DNA from: a virus
Taxonomy: Duplodnaviria; Caudoviricetes
Strand: one strand, 5' to 3'
Length of the DNA: 64,000 bases
IMG/VR virus record: IMGVR_UViG_3300021255_002052
Span: 32,001-96,000 of that record
Below the pieces are notes generated by a model. It did not search any database. It was not told the DNA's origin and saw nothing but the letters and a program-made list of their open reading frames with translations. Position 1 is the stretch's first letter, and each line of letters starts with the position of its first letter. Below are positions 4,957 through 9,944 of this stretch, one piece after another. A program made the position numbers and the translations under genes.

Positions 4957-5375
4957 ATGCCTAGAATTATGACATATTCAGCGCATATGCTGGACGCTTT
5001 CAAGAATGATGTAAACAATATCGTAGCTTTCTAGTCTCTAATGATGGATACGAGTAATCGCAATTATGTCAAGTATCCGCATGATGAGTCTAATGAAATG
5101 ATCCGCGCTCAGCTCAATAAGGTGCTGGGAATTGACTATAAGACCGCTTCCAATATGGAACGCAGATAGGCCATGAGACTTCACGGTCCTGAAGCTTACT
5201 CTCTGGTCGAGACTGTTCTTGTTGAGAAGCTTCAGTCCGGCTGGGATTCCAATAACGCTTTCTTCATGAATTATGTGGAGCAGAGGAATCTGGCACAGGG
5301 TGACATGAACGAGTTCTACGTAGAGGACAATAGTCTTCTAACGGTAAGCCGTTTCGCTGGAAACCATCATGACGT
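4957..5375 (+). CDS. Major capsid protein, exon 1 (TAG at 5032 and 5167)
   Basis: AAGGAGG RBS, ATG 4957. Reading ends ...FAGNHHD-GT at the predicted 5' splice site. Confidence 0.8.
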
Positions 5376-6531
5376 TAATTTTTATAGCGTCCGTGTAGCG
5401 TGAGCTGCATGATAAAATACGCATCTAACTGCTGGAAACCCTTAAAGCTAACTAAACCACTACGTGGGGATGAAATAAGCCCGAGCGTGACGGTGACGAA
5501 AGTAGAAAAAATTAGTTAGATGGCATAAGGTTAAAACCTAAGTGCTGAAACAATAGGCAATCAGCAGCCAAATTCCGAACAGGAAGAGGTTCAACGACTA
5601 TCCCTTTGGTGGGCTAATCCCCCACAACAGGAGTACGGCTCAAGCGAGTAGGTGAAAATCCTTTAAATGGAAATGGTGCGTCGTTATATTATTATAACGA
5701 AAAGATATAGTCTGCTCACGGGTGAAAGATCCGTGGGATATTTAATATCCGACAGGGAATAGCGCCCCTACAAAATTATTTCCCCTTATACCCTTAAAAG
5801 GAGCGATTAAAACGAAAGATAAAATTTCTGGGATTTACTGCATCAGAAATATAGAGAACGACAAGAGATATATCGGACAGTCTATAGATATTCATGATAG
5901 ATGGAGACGGCATATAAGTGAGTTGACCAATGGGAAACACCACAACGACCATCTTCAAAAATCATGGAATAAATATGGAGAAGATTCTTTCTAGTTTGAT
6001 GTATTAGAGGAATGTCCTGAAGATTAGCTAGATGATAGAGAACGTTTCTATATTGACGTGTACAATACGATGGACGGGGATTTCGGATATAATGAAAAAA
6101 CTGGAGGATAGGCTGGCAATCATTATTCTGAACAGACACGTCTAAAGATGAGTGAATCTATAAAACGTACTTTTCTAGATCCAAATAGAAGAAAGATACA
6201 GAGTGAAAACGCCTTGAAACAATGGGCGAATCCGGAGATAAAATAGAAAATTCTTGGAGAAAATAATGGTATGTACGGAAAACACCATTCTGAAGAATCC
6301 AAGAGAAAGATGGGCGAAGCCAAGAAGGGACGACCTTCATGGAGACGCAATACGACTCCGGTTTTCTGCGTTGAATTGGATCAAACATATGACTGCGCTG
6401 TCACCGCAGCTAAAGAGCTATCGTTAGATAGTTGTGGCATATTAAAAACATGTAGAGGAGAACGCCATACATGTGGTGGTTACCATTGGAATTTTGTTTA
6501 ATAGGGAAAATAATATAAGTCAAACATAAGG
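5376..6531 (+). mobile_element. Group I self-splicing intron (IA-like) in the major capsid gene
   Basis: Core elements: P AACTGCTGGAAA 5427, Q AATCAGCAGC 5559, R GTTCAACGACTA 5589, S AAGATATAGTCT 5702. P3 is ACGCATC/GGTGCGT. P1 pairs exon GACGT with GCGTC 5387-5391, giving U.G at T5375. Terminal G at 6531. Splicing restores HHDVIRQ in frame. Confidence 0.9.
5806..6501 (+). CDS. Intron-encoded GIY-YIG homing endonuclease with NUMOD3/NUMOD1-like DNA-binding tail (4 TAG=Gln)
   Basis: SGIYCIRNIENDKRYIGQS...RWRRH, GYN, then GMYGKHHSEESKRKM and a C-terminal GGYHW. No ATG at the 5' end; ATT 5806 or ACG 5812 follows AAGGAG. Confidence 0.88.
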
Positions 6532-7210
6532 TATTAGACAGGCTTTACTGCCCGGCAAGTCTTTCGTCATTGATACCGAGTGGAAGGTCATCAAAGTTTA
6601 TGCTGACTTCCGCCTGATGATGACTGGTCGTATCGACTTCGCTGAGTTCATCGACCGTTGCTACAGATCTATCGAAGTAGACCGTTACGACGCTATCTAT
6701 GAAGAGTTCATGGCTCTTGACGATGCTATTCCGACCGATCTGGTTAAGGGTATTACTTTTAGCGAGAACACTCGTACCGATATTATCGAACACATCGAGA
6801 CAGTCGCTTCTGCTGCCGGATCCGAAGTTACTCTTGTAGGAACCCGTCCGGCCCTTGAGAAGCTTCAGTCCACTGTTAACTACAATATGTGGTCTGATGC
6901 GATGAAGGATGAGCGCCACAATAACCAGATCCTGGGTAACTGGGAAGGTTATGAGCTTCTTCCGCTTCGTAGAGTTAATAAACTGAATACTTTCCAGTCT
7001 GTTTTCACCGCAGCGGACAACAACAAGATCCTCGTTATGCCGAAGAATATGGACAAGCCGATCAAGCTTGTTGTCGAAGGCGACGTGGAAGTTTACGAGG
7101 GCGGCCGTGACGGCATGAAGAAAGACATGACCGTTGATACTGAGATCCAGTACTGCGAAGGTGTCGGAACAGTCGTTAATCAGTACTTTGGCGAGATCAA
7201 GATTCAGTGA
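6532..7210 (+). CDS. Major capsid protein, exon 2 (spliced product ~365 aa)
   Basis: Frame is open from 6532 (IRQALLPGKSF...) into ORF 6617..7210. Exon lengths 419+679 nt give 366 codons. Confidence 0.8.
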
Positions 7211-7240
7211 TCTCACTGATCGACGGAGGATTAGAAGGAA

Positions 7241-7912
7241 ATGAAAATAGGTGAATTATCCAAAGAGCTAGGGGTCAAGAATAAGGACCTGATAACATAC
7301 CTGAGAGAGGCCGGGTTTTCCTCGGTCTCTTCTCATGTTCAGGCCGCGACAGAAGACATGATTGTCATGGCTCACAAACACTTTGATGCACTTGAGGAAA
7401 CTCCTAAATAGGAGGAACCTGCTGAGCAGCCGGTAGAGAAATCTTCCCAGAAGAGGCCGCTTAAACGGTTCGCTCTCGACGATATGATCCCGTGTCGGTC
7501 TGTGACACCTTACGGTCTCATCCTTGAATCTCCTGATAGGACACTGATCTACCGTTGGAGCAACTGGGGCGACGTAGAACTTGTCAGATACAAGGATCTC
7601 CAGTCATGGAGACGGAATCCGATCGTTACAGACCCGAAGATTCTGATCGAAGACGCTGATCTGGTCGAGCAGTGGAAACGCGATATCGGAGATGTCTATA
7701 AGCCGTTCATTGGGGTGGATTATCCGGAAGAACTGTTTGATCTGTCTGACGACGATTTTGAGAAGCTTCTTAGAACCGGGAATCGGACGGTTAAGCAGAT
7801 CATTGCGACCACAGCAATGTCGATGATCCGCGCCGAGAATTATCCAGACGTGAGGAAACTCAGGATCATTGACGACGTCCTCGGGACGATGCTGATGCAG
7901 GTCCTTAGGTAA
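7241..7912 (+). CDS. Protein with an N-terminal IF2-N-like domain fused, via TAG 7409, to a phage head-module domain (223 aa)
   Basis: MKIGELSKELGVKNKDLITYLREAGFSSVSSH resembles the translation initiation factor IF2 N-terminal motif. In frame with ORF 7484..7912. Confidence 0.7.
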
Positions 7913-7932
7913 TATAAAAAGGAGGAGGCTAA

Positions 7933-8379
7933 ATGGAATATGAAGTTATTTTCAATCGCTTCCTCTCCCGTATAAAAGATGTTTCTCTGCTTTCTCTAGA
8001 GGAAAGATACAGGAACGAAATGTTACAAGATTATCTAATCGGTGCGCTTGGTATTCCGTATGTGCGTAAGATCTTCTCTACCATAGAAACAGACGACGAC
8101 TACGGAGAGCTCTCTTACACTCTAGCGGACGATTTTACGACCGACGTAGATTCGGCTGATCGTTTCGTCCTGGAGGTTCTAGTTCAGGCGATGACAGTAG
8201 AGTGGCTGCGCCCACAGATAGATAACGCACTCAATCTCGCTATGGTAATTGGTGGTAAGGAAGAAAAAGTTCTTTAGAACAATTTGAAAGCCAACATGTA
8301 GCGTCTCCATGACGCGGAAATTCGGCTTCAAAAATATATTAGAGACCACGGCTACTATCAGGGAAACTATGAGTCTTAA
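7933..8379 (+). CDS. Head-tail adaptor-like protein (148 aa)
   Basis: ORF 7933 extends through two TAGs to TAA 8377-8379. Neck-module position. Confidence 0.6.
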
Positions 8380-8719
8380 ACACGAATACGGGGAATTTAC
8401 TTCGGAACAGGTCGCTAAAGAAAAGAAAGCGCTATAGAGTTCTATATTCTTCCTGCTCTTAGCGGTGGACCCTAAGACGGCAGACCGATATCCGAACGTA
8501 GATGTCGACAAGACGTTTACAAACTTGCTCAGGCGAATCTCCGGGCTTAACACTCTCCTCTTCTGCTAGCGAGAGCTGGTGGACGTGATGAGTTACCTGG
8601 AAGAGGCGAGAACTGAGTACAATAAAGATGATTTCGACTTCGGTTCGTATAGGAATTTAGTCCTTACGGCCGGGGCTGAAGTTATGAAGCTTAAGGAGGT
8701 GGATGATGGCCTCGCTTAA
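8369..8719 (+). CDS. Hypothetical neck-module protein (116 aa, 2 TAG)
   Basis: ATG overlaps the previous gene. Open to TAA with TAG=Gln. Overlaps the next gene's RBS. Confidence 0.65.
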
Positions 8720-9944
8720 TGCTTTAACTAGTTTCTATGGTGCAGAACCTAAAATCGGTAAGCAATTAAAAACTATAGCAGATAGCGCTATGGAATAGAC
8801 ATTCTATAACGATATCACGACGCGAAGATGTTATATCTACGATTATTTTAGTGATGATCCTGAAACGGAAGATCTGGAAGTATTCGGAACGGACTACGTG
8901 CCGCCAGAGGGTTCCAAGAAGATTCCGGTCGATCTCAAGTTCATGATCAAAGGATATAGATCTCTCGCGAAGGATGATCCTGAGTACTACGTATAGTTCT
9001 TGCCATCGGAATGGAACAGAGTAGTCGAAGATCCGGAAAATCAGTAGATTATTCCGAATTACTTCCAGGATCGCTATGGTAAGTTCGGTGTCAGATATCC
9101 GGTAGGACTCTATATTGACGTACCCGACGATCGAGGTCGCTATCAGCGATGGTTGGTCGTATACGAGGATGTCGCTAACTAGTTCCCGAAGTTCGGCGTA
9201 CTTCGCTGTAACTATCAGTTGGACTGGGTTATAGACAAACCGGAAGGTAGATTTAAACGAAAAATGTGGGGAGTATAGAGAACACAGAGTTCGTACAACG
9301 CAGGAATTTATTCCTTCGATAAATCTACGGTAATGGAAAGTCAGTCTCGTTTCTGGCTTCCCTGGAACTCTATCTCTAGAGAGATTTTCTATAATCAGAG
9401 GATCATCCTATCCATGCCTATGGATATCCCCCTCTGTTGGCAAATTTCTAAAGCTCAGAACACCGAACCGCGCGGAGTACTTATGCTTACGCTATATTAG
9501 GATACTTACAATCCTGTTACCGATTATATAGATAAAACCAATCCCGACCATTGGCGGATGTATGCCGATTACTATAAGTTCCCCGCTACCCCGGAATTTT
9601 CGGAGAACGAGGAAACGGAAAACACTCCCACAGGAGAACTGCGTATAAGTAGCAACACGGCTCTGGTAAAGATCGGAGGATCTTATAAGACTCTGACGGC
9701 TACGATCTATAACGAAAAATCGGAAGAGATCACTTCTGACTACTCTTCTTTCTCGTGGTCCTTCGCCCTGGGCGACGGGACTGACGCTACGGATCTGGTT
9801 TCCACGTCGGAGGTTCCTGGTTCTGCTAATAAAATCAAAGTGAAATTCCTCGGAGACGAGTCGTATGTCGGTCAGCGATTAGTCGCTACTTGTACCGCAG
9901 ACGATCTAACTGACGAACATAGCTTTGACATCCTATTCATGTAA
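8706..9944 (+). CDS. Head-closure/neck protein with C-terminal Ig-like domain (~412 aa)
   Basis: AAGGAGGT RBS. In frame with ORF 9558..9944 across TAGs. Function inferred from position. Confidence 0.6.

What the first reader, a model, noticed from the sequence alone, without database searches (positions are those of the whole stretch)
7241..7912. IF2 N-terminal-like domain separated from a phage domain by a single TAG: possible code-dependent switch
Seen: the first ~48 aa follow the IF2_N pattern (I-x-EL-x-KELGV-x-x-K-x-L-x-x-x-L...SH), and the only TAG (7409) lies in the linker right after it. Known: IF2-N contacts the ribosome. Inference: under the host code the gene makes a free 56-aa IF2-N mimic, and under the phage code a 223-aa fusion. 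A translation-factor mimic next to the capsid gene of a recoded phage could modulate initiation or tether ribosomes, and might relate to the non-ATG starts.
Basis: partly seen in the sequence, partly recalled or inferred. Interest (0 to 1): 0.75.

Follow-up and report, generated by a model that had tools for sequence, protein, structure and literature searches.

The report
Ordinary amber-Gln codon, phage head gene
The gene is real and does begin with a domain like the N-terminus of translation factor IF2, but its single TAG is an ordinary glutamine codon of a stop-codon-recoded phage, lying in a floppy linker, and not a conserved switch that makes two products.

Summary
Observation confirmed. 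ORF 7241-7912 has one in-frame TAG (7409-7411, codon 57). Residues 1-50 match Pfam IF2_N (25.4 bits against a cut-off of 25.3), and their best structural match is the Thermus IF2 N-domain (Z 7.2). The switch reading is not supported. The window is a TAG=Gln recoded SPbeta-like phage with 205 TAGs in 20,422 codons and its own tRNA-CUA, so 2.2 TAGs are expected in a gene this long. More than 45 standard-code relatives encode the same fused two-domain protein without any TAG. Of 18 recoded lineages, 9 have no TAG in this gene. Four have TAGs only inside the folded domains, including the conserved Gln34 and Gln121. Five have one in the linker, which is the background rate (28% against 27% expected). 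A 99%-identical strain has GAG at codon 57 and TAG at codon 63. The premise is also weak: the published partner of the IF2 N1 domain is NusA, not the ribosome. The protein is the counterpart by position of SPbeta YonA, encoded right after the capsid-like gene. It has a phage-specific C-domain of unknown fold and is probably a head-assembly or packaging accessory factor. The scan has not noted this protein on other DNA.

The parts
7225..7229 (+). Shine-Dalgarno-like GGAGG, 11 nt before the ATG
   Evidence: read directly from the sequence
7241..7912 (+). gene for a 223-aa two-domain protein (TAG read as Gln), ending in TAA; positional counterpart of SPbeta yonA
   Evidence: full-length homologs of 222-236 aa at 100% coverage; conserved synteny
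7241..7390 (+). residues 1-50: IF2_N-type domain (strand, two helices, strand, helix)
   Evidence: Pfam PF04760 at 25.4 and 28.5 bits; relatives down to E 7e-14; top structural match 4b3x_A, IF2 N-domain, Z 7.2, 56 residues, rmsd 2.7 A; every PDB hit of the family profile is an IF2 N-terminus
7391..7468 (+). residues 51-76: disordered, charged, hypervariable linker; this is the ancestral disordered N-terminal tail of the family
   Evidence: pLDDT under 50 for residues 52-70; variable in length and sequence in alignments; family members without IF2_N carry only such a tail
7409..7411 (+). TAG, codon 57, read as Gln; a young, strain-level codon variant
   Evidence: TAG interchanges with CAG/CAA in 23 of 28 differing sites against L001; L077 has GAG here and TAG at codon 63
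7469..7909 (+). residues 77-223: conserved acidic C-domain (a small sheet followed by a helical half), the widespread core of the family
   Evidence: 363 representative clusters; phrog_13983 and phrog_5329; pLDDT 95.6 when modelled alone; no convincing solved-structure match; only viral clusters in the ESM Atlas; pI 4.7

Best explanation
This is an ordinary late gene of a TAG-to-glutamine recoded, SPbeta-like gut phage. Its product is the full 223-aa protein. It has an IF2_N-type module of about 50 residues, a disordered charged linker, and a conserved acidic C-domain of a phage-specific fold. TAG57 is decoded as Gln, presumably by the phage's own tRNA-CUA. It is one of about 200 such codons in the window and a recent, neutral or nearly neutral codon variant in a poorly constrained linker. 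It is not a programmed domain-boundary switch. Shown: the recoding, the meaning of TAG, the domain architecture, the non-conservation of the TAG, and the conserved gene position right after the YonB-type capsid-like gene. Inferred, at roughly 35% confidence: the protein is a head-assembly or DNA-packaging accessory factor. In that reading its C-domain docks on a head component and its tethered N-terminal module binds another partner. This resembles lambda gpFI in gene position and in having two modules joined by a flexible linker. The overall confidence given here refers to the shown part (an ordinary Gln codon, one full-length product, no gene-specific switch).
For: Recoding: reading TAG as sense raises ORF coverage from 74% to 98% and opens a 7,494-aa frame holding 96 TAGs. 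There are 205 TAGs in 20,422 codons, no gene ends in TAG, and 2.2 TAGs are expected in this gene. TAG means Gln: against the close recoded relative L001, TAG pairs with CAG or CAA at 23 of 28 differing sites, and only 11 of the window's 26 aligned TAG sites are shared. Conserved Gln columns in standard-code relatives agree. A tRNA with anticodon CUA lies 3.3 kb upstream of the window. The fusion is the conserved form: over 100 full-length homologs, and dozens of standard-code loci encode it with no TAG. The TAG is not conserved: of 18 recoded lineages, 9 have none, 4 have TAGs only in the domains (at window-numbered positions 16, 34, 82, 121, 121 and 154), and 5 have a linker TAG, 28% against 27% expected, p = 0.55. 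L077, 99% identical, has GAG57 and TAG63. A general 5' bias of TAG in this phage's genes under 700 codons (36/23/12 by thirds, KS p = 0.002) already favours codon 57 of 223. Context: the order portal, YonD_N, ~150-199 aa, YonB, target, ~145 aa, ~105 aa, ~360-412 aa, YomW, then YomV and YomU_Tube is kept in distant relatives and prophages. The same order is seen in Lactococcus phage WRP3, whose gene 166 matches at hhalign 98.8%, and in SPbeta.
Against: One of my own arguments failed: TAG sites in the window's other genes are not enriched at variable alignment columns. A TAG lying in a variable region is therefore not a genome-wide rule. Within this family, TAGs are about 6-fold depleted from the two folded domains (6 observed, about 35 expected) but not from the linker. 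Between the window and its 99% relative, the only two linker differences both involve TAG. A model that keeps one TAG in the linker would also predict this. The functional part rests on gene position and architecture only. The C-domain has no known fold and no experimental data. Homology to SPbeta YonA itself is borderline (hhalign 45%).
Confidence: 0.8

Rival explanations
1. The TAG is a programmed switch. Before the suppressor tRNA acts, or through incomplete suppression, the gene releases a free IF2_N peptide of about 56 aa that acts on host translation or transcription. Later it yields the 223-aa fusion.
For: Under table 11 the ORF does end just after a complete IF2_N domain. Five of 18 recoded lineages have a TAG between residues 49 and 67. 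The window and its 99% relative each keep exactly one linker TAG, at different codons.
Against: Half of the recoded lineages, including all relatives at 81-86% identity, have no TAG in the gene. Four lineages have TAGs only inside the domains, at Gln34 or Gln121 for example, which would truncate within a domain. The rate of linker TAGs equals the genome-wide background. Standard-code phages keep the fusion. The gene lies in the late head operon, among genes that nearly all carry TAGs. The IF2 N1 domain is reported not to bind ribosomes noticeably (PMC12297416).
Confidence: 0.04
2. The TAG is functional, but only as part of a genome-wide gate. Early, 5'-proximal TAGs in late genes keep them silent, at low cost, until the phage suppressor tRNA is made. 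This is the published model for recoded phages. The domain boundary is irrelevant.
For: TAGs are 5'-biased in genes under 700 codons, 36/23/12 by thirds with p = 0.002, and 15/9/3 in the head module. Parts of the genome outside the late region barely depend on TAG read-through. The model is stated in bioRxiv 10.1101/2021.08.26.457843 (title and abstract).
Against: Nine of 18 recoded lineages have no TAG in this gene, and seven genes in the window have none. Gating of each individual gene is therefore not required. TAG sites turn over quickly between close relatives.
Confidence: 0.12
3. The N-terminal module works as a MerR-type winged-helix DNA binder, like RacA or pSK1 Par, rather than like IF2N. 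It would tether phage DNA to a head or packaging component. This rival concerns the function of the module only and is compatible with the ordinary reading of the TAG.
For: The structural matches after IF2 are pSK1 Par (Z 5.9), RacA (Z 5.5), CvkR and GlnR DNA-binding domains. Weak Pfam hits to HTH_10 and MerR_1. Many family members have a basic disordered tail instead of this module.
Against: IF2 is the top hit by fold and the only hit by family profile. The S-H-x-Q motif, which is invariant in the phage family, aligns with the K-S-H of Thermus IF2. The module is near neutral (pI 6.2, family median 6.0), not basic.
Confidence: 0.12

Closest known systems
N-terminal domain of bacterial IF2 (IF2N/N1; Pfam PF04760; Thermus IF2 structure 4b3x)
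   Same: About 50 residues at the extreme N-terminus, the same secondary-structure order, a collinear sequence match that includes the S-H motif, and a long flexible linker after it.
   Different: It is not attached to a translational GTPase but to a phage-specific C-domain in a head gene block. Its binding partner is unknown. E. coli N1 binds NusA and not noticeably the ribosome (PMC12297416).
YonA-position proteins of SPbeta-like and Lactococcus 949-group phages (SPbeta yonA; WRP3 gene 166; phrog_13983 and phrog_5329)
   Same: Same gene slot, between the YonB-type capsid-like gene and the yomZ-like gene. The C-domain is homologous to WRP3_166 (hhalign 98.8%). All are annotated as hypothetical.
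   Different: Most members carry only a disordered tail of 30-90 aa before the C-domain. The IF2_N head is found in one subfamily, 15 of 86 distant representatives. The match to SPbeta YonA itself is borderline.
TAG-to-Gln recoded gut phages (genetic code 15; Borges et al. preprint 10.1101/2021.08.26.457843; Peters et al., PMC9523058; the phAss-1 group, PMC10607447)
   Same: In-frame TAGs throughout the late genes, a phage-encoded tRNA-CUA, TAG read as Gln, and standard-code close relatives.
   Different: Nothing that bears on this gene. It is a typical recoded late gene with fewer TAGs than average.
Lambda gpFI (DNA-packaging accessory protein; general knowledge, cited only through the reference list of PMC3224144)
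   Same: Encoded directly after the major capsid gene, and built as two modules joined by a long flexible linker. The WRP3 homolog is not labelled structural although most of its neighbours are.
   Different: No sequence or fold similarity was shown here. This is an analogy of position and architecture only.

Membership tests
Pfam IF2_N (PF04760) | Score at or above the curated gathering threshold | tested here: met
   25.4 bits (full protein) and 28.5 bits (56-aa piece) against 25.3. Fifteen distant relatives match, the best at E 7e-14. Nearly all close homologs carry PF04760 in the precomputed table.
Pfam IF2_N (PF04760) | Fold of the IF2 N-domain | tested here: met
   The top hit among 48,161 chains is 4b3x_A residues 4-59, with Z 7.2, rmsd 2.7 A and 56 residues aligned. 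The next hits are MerR-type domains at Z 5.9 or lower. Z is under 8, so this is moderate support on its own.
Bacterial IF2 (translation factor) | GTPase and C-terminal fMet-tRNA-binding domains after the N-domain | tested here: not met
   The C-terminal 147 residues match only phage families of unknown function.
Bacterial IF2 (translation factor) | Binding to the ribosome or to NusA | not testable with these tools
   The host is unknown and no binding assay is possible. The literature gives NusA as the N1 partner.
TAG-to-Gln recoded phage (code 15) | In-frame TAGs in most genes, TAG never used as a terminator, TAG aligned with Gln, phage tRNA-CUA present | tested here: met
Programmed stop-codon switch giving two functional products | The stop codon is conserved in position among relatives that use the same code | tested here: not met
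   Of 18 recoded lineages, 9 have no TAG, 4 have TAGs only in the domains, and 5 have one in the linker, each at a different codon. A 99% relative differs in position.
Programmed stop-codon switch giving two functional products | The stop occurs more often at the boundary than background predicts | tested here: not met
   28% of lineages against 27% expected from the genome-wide TAG density, p = 0.55. The opportunity model predicts 52% of TAGs in the linker.
YonA-position head-module family (SPbeta-like phages) | Gene slot between the YonB-type gene and the yomZ-like gene in a conserved module running from the portal to the tail tube | tested here: met
YonA-position head-module family (SPbeta-like phages) | Sequence homology to named members | tested here: inconclusive
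   WRP3_166 matches at hhalign 98.8%, E 1e-16. SPbeta YonA matches at only 45%, E 2e-4, though collinearly and with shared Y-x-W and I-E-D motifs.
Lambda gpFI-like packaging accessory proteins | Sequence or structural similarity to gpFI; absence from the virion; stimulation of packaging | not tested
   Only gene position and the two-module architecture were compared. The 'hypothetical' label beside 'structural' labels in WRP3 is a lead, and its experimental basis was not found.

The most novel reading that the evidence does not exclude
Selection keeps one TAG somewhere in the disordered tail, just after the IF2_N module, in some recoded lineages. The window and its 99% relative would show turnover from codon 57 to codon 63. 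Infected cells would then make a free IF2N-like peptide, a possible NusA or ribosome ligand, before or alongside the full-length head-module protein.
Probability: 0.04. Interest if true: 0.6.

Novelty: new member of a known kind. Interest (0 to 1): 0.2.

Why it matters
As a switch it does not hold, which removes an attractive but unsupported idea. What remains is modest but real. An IF2_N-type module has been grafted onto the disordered tail of a conserved, uncharacterised head-module protein in a sizeable group of gut and rumen phages, both standard-code and recoded. The IF2 N1 domain was recently shown to bind NusA. The phage module is therefore a candidate ligand for a host transcription or translation factor, and it could be tested cheaply by pull-down. 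The dataset also gives a clean example of how fast TAG and CAG codons interchange between closely related recoded phages.

Tried and rejected
- Foldseek against the PDB found nothing at E <= 0.001, either for the whole model or for the C-domain alone. The weak GINS-like rows were not pursued.
- VIA-align on the C-domain gave a best Z of 5.4, on the helical half only, which is within the noise range stated by the tool.
- Profile and single-sequence searches of PDB sequences gave nothing for the C-domain or for the 56-aa piece alone.
- tblastn of the protein against 50,697 phage records found no match. The cultured relatives were reached only through the neighbouring YonB-like gene.
- A complex-prediction job of the C-domain with the adjacent YonB-type protein, using the standard-code pair from L009, gave no verdict: scores 0.00, 0.73 and 0.00. 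It is neither support nor evidence against binding.
I did not resend it in another form.
- The first try of the atlas structure search failed on the remote machine and later worked.
- My argument that TAGs sit at variable positions genome-wide was tested and failed.
- Literature searches for SPbeta yonA/yonB and for the basis of the 'structural protein' labels in 949-group phages found nothing usable.
- A small-terminase reading (N-terminal winged helix plus oligomerisation domain) was considered and dropped. The gene is not next to the terminase gene, and the C-domain models as a compact monomer with no terminase-like match.

Full report
**1. The observation**

The + strand frame from ATG 7241 to TAA 7910-7912 is open except for one TAG at 7409-7411, codon 57. 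Under table 11 it falls into a 56-aa ORF and a 142-aa ORF. A GGAGG lies at 7225-7229. Pfam IF2_N matches residues 1-30 of the full protein (1-32 of the 56-aa piece). The score is 25.4 bits for the full protein and 28.5 bits for the 56-aa piece, against a gathering score of 25.3. An AlphaFold2 model built on 31 homologs has mean pLDDT 83.7. It shows a small N-terminal domain with helices at 3-10, 14-23 and 38-50, a disordered stretch with pLDDT under 50 at 52-70, and a well-folded C-terminal domain.

**2. The genome and its code**

- **Origin.** The window is bases 32001-96000 of a 109,771-bp IMG/VR virus record estimated about 60% complete.
- **TAG is a sense codon.** Reading TAG as sense raises coverage by ORFs of at least 100 aa from 74% to 98%. 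It also opens a 7,494-aa frame that holds 96 TAGs.
- **TAG frequency.** In 37 + strand genes there are 205 TAGs in 20,422 codons, about 10 per 1000. TAG makes up 24% of TAG+CAA+CAG codons. No gene ends in TAG: 22 end in TAA and 14 in TGA.
- **Expectation for this gene.** A 223-codon gene is expected to hold 2.2 TAGs, and the probability of at least one is 0.89.
- **TAG means Gln.** The close relative L001 is itself recoded and 81-96% identical per protein. Against it, window TAGs pair with TAG 11 times, CAG 8 times, CAA 5 times and other codons twice. The reverse comparison gives TAG 11, CAG 8, CAA 2 and other 3. TAG therefore means Gln. Only 11 of the window's 26 aligned TAG sites are shared, so TAG sites turn over quickly.
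- **Independent support.** Standard-code relatives show Gln at the conserved TAG-aligned columns. For example, one site has Gln in 26 of 26 relatives and another in 23 of 25.
- **Suppressor tRNA.** A tRNA with anticodon CUA lies at genome 28566-28657, 3.3 kb upstream of the window. Rfam confirms it at 51 bits. It has a 20-nt insertion in the variable region.

**3. The protein and its relatives**

More than 100 clusters of full-length homologs, 222-236 aa at 100% coverage, share both domains. The alignment shows a conserved N-domain with invariant L6, N14, K15, S31, H32 and Q34. It also shows a conserved C-domain. Between them lies a linker that varies in both length and sequence.

An exhaustive search finds 363 representative clusters. 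Most are 180-210 aa and match only residues ~55-220. In those, the C-domain is preceded by a disordered tail of 30-90 aa rich in K, T, E and P, and often basic. Only 15 of 86 distant representatives carry IF2_N. The IF2_N module is therefore an addition to an older protein made of a tail plus a C-domain. The 'linker' in this gene is that ancestral tail.

**4. Is the N-domain really IF2_N?**

Four lines of evidence agree:

- Pfam matches at the gathering threshold here and at E 7e-14 in relatives.
- All six hits of the family profile among PDB sequences are bacterial IF2 N-termini. They align collinearly, profile 2-63 to IF2 5-66, and include the S-H motif, although the E-values are weak at 0.15-0.32.
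- An all-against-representatives structural search puts Thermus IF2 (4b3x_A, residues 4-59) first, with Z 7.2, rmsd 2.7 A and 56 residues aligned. MerR-type winged-helix DNA-binding domains follow at Z 4.2-5.9: pSK1 Par, RacA, CvkR and GlnR.
- The domain is near neutral, with pI 6.2 here and a family median of 6.0. This fits IF2N better than a basic DNA binder.

On function, PMC12297416 states that the role of the E. coli N1 subdomain had remained obscure. [quoted passage not shown] By pull-down and in-cell crosslinking the paper shows that Domain I binds NusA.

**5. Is the TAG a switch?**

- **Standard-code relatives.** Dozens of loci from IMG/VR and metagenomes use the standard code and encode the same fused protein with no TAG.
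- **Closest recoded relatives.** L001-L003 (81% identity), L073 (86%) and L075/L081 (83-84%) have no TAG in this gene, although their neighbouring genes carry TAGs.
- **The 99% relative.** L077 has GAG at codon 57 and TAG at codon 63, where the window has CAG.
- **Other recoded lineages.** In window numbering they carry TAGs at 16 and 52 (L083), 34, the invariant Gln (L008), 49 and 56 (L004/L068/L069), 59 (L058), 65 (L021/L100), 82 (L107), 121, the nearly invariant Gln (L067), and 121 and 154 (L106).
- **Tally.** Clustering at 90% identity gives 18 recoded lineages. Nine have no TAG, four have TAGs only in the folded domains, and five have a linker TAG. A 31-codon linker at the genome-wide TAG density should hold at least one TAG in 27% of lineages. 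The observed share is 28% (p = 0.55).
- **Opportunity model.** The linker holds about 3.1 codons one step from TAG, and the domains hold about 3.0 CAG codons. This predicts 52% of TAGs in the linker. The observed share is 7 of 13.
- **5' bias.** TAGs in this phage's genes under 700 codons are biased to the 5' end: 36/23/12 by thirds (KS p = 0.002), and 15/9/3 in the head module. Codon 57 of 223 lies in the generally favoured region.

**6. Points that do not fit neatly**

- I expected TAGs to sit at poorly conserved columns genome-wide. They do not: the mean majority fraction is 0.75 for TAG sites, 0.68 for CAA/CAG sites and 0.73 for all sites.
- Within this family, TAG is depleted about 6-fold in the folded domains (6 observed, about 35 expected) but not in the linker.
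- The only two linker differences between the window and L077 both involve TAG.

A model that keeps one TAG in the tail would also predict the last two points. I put its probability at about 4%, because half of the recoded lineages lack any TAG in this gene.

**7. What the protein is**

- **Gene order.** The order runs terminase, portal, a ~60-aa gene, YonD_N, a ~150-199-aa gene, YonB, then the target. After the target come genes of ~145 aa, ~105 aa and ~360-412 aa, then YomW, YomV and YomU_Tube. It is kept in distant relatives, including a prophage in a 2.78-Mb contig. It mirrors SPbeta yonF through yomU and Lactococcus phage WRP3.
- **Named relatives.** WRP3 gene 166 is a clear homolog of the C-domain: hhalign 98.8%, E 1e-16, 148 columns. 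SPbeta YonA is the positional equivalent but gives only a borderline match: 45%, E 2e-4.
- **Annotation.** In both records this gene is 'hypothetical' while several neighbours are 'structural protein' or 'virion structural protein'. I could not find the experimental basis for those labels, so this is only a lead.
- **C-domain fold.** Modelled alone, the C-domain reaches pLDDT 95.6 and pTM 0.84. It has no convincing match among solved structures. Its structural relatives are only viral clusters, one of them auto-named as IF-2 N-terminal domain-containing.

My best functional guess, at about 35%, is a head-assembly or packaging accessory factor. It resembles lambda gpFI in gene position and in being two modules joined by a flexible linker. 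That comparison rests on general knowledge and is an analogy, not a membership.

**8. Verdict**

The code-dependent switch is not supported. The gene is a typical, TAG-poor late gene of a known kind of recoded phage. It belongs to an uncharacterised but widespread head-module family. Earlier notes of this scan concern only this same genome. The protein was not noted on other DNA.

Noticed in passing
window 4957-7210 (insertion about 5373-6538; Rfam match 5366-5735; endonuclease ORF 5923-6501): The YonB-type capsid-like gene is interrupted by a group I intron (RF00028, 61.9 bits, E 7e-15). The intron carries a GIY-YIG/NUMOD3 homing endonuclease with four in-frame TAGs. The intron is polymorphic. 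It is absent from L077, which is 99.9% identical upstream of the site, and from L001, and present in L073.
   Followed up: partly
window 6539-8194 compared with L077: Identity to L077 drops from 99.9% upstream of the intron site (3 mismatches in 3,288 nt) to 97.9% downstream (35 in 1,656 nt). Nine synonymous differences are packed into 6625-6694. This looks like a co-conversion or recombination tract tied to intron homing, and the target gene lies inside it.
   Followed up: partly
whole window, + strand genes: TAG codons are biased to the 5' part of genes under 700 codons: 36/23/12 by thirds, KS p = 0.002. Seven genes have no TAG at all. TAG sites are no less conserved than other sites.
   Followed up: partly
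genome 28566-28657 (3.3 kb upstream of the window; L080:268-357): The suppressor tRNA (anticodon CUA; Rfam 51 bits) has a 20-nt insertion in the variable region, like class II tRNAs, yet codon comparisons say TAG means Gln. Which synthetase charges it is unexplained.
   Followed up: partly
window 15873-38357: A single 7,494-aa open frame with 96 in-frame TAGs follows the tail genes. It was not characterised here.
   Followed up: no
L070:769-1440 and L071:714-1385: In two short contigs the ortholog is split by a true stop after residue 85 into an 85-aa IF2_N piece and a 100-aa C-terminal piece. This may be a frameshift, an assembly error or a decaying copy.
   Followed up: no
L073:5481-7047: In this 86%-related phage the counterpart of the window's 413-aa gene (8703-9944) is called as two genes of 235 and 176 aa with a ~330-nt gap. 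A product with a faint LAGLIDADG hit lies at the locus end. This may be a second insertion in the head or neck module.
   Followed up: no
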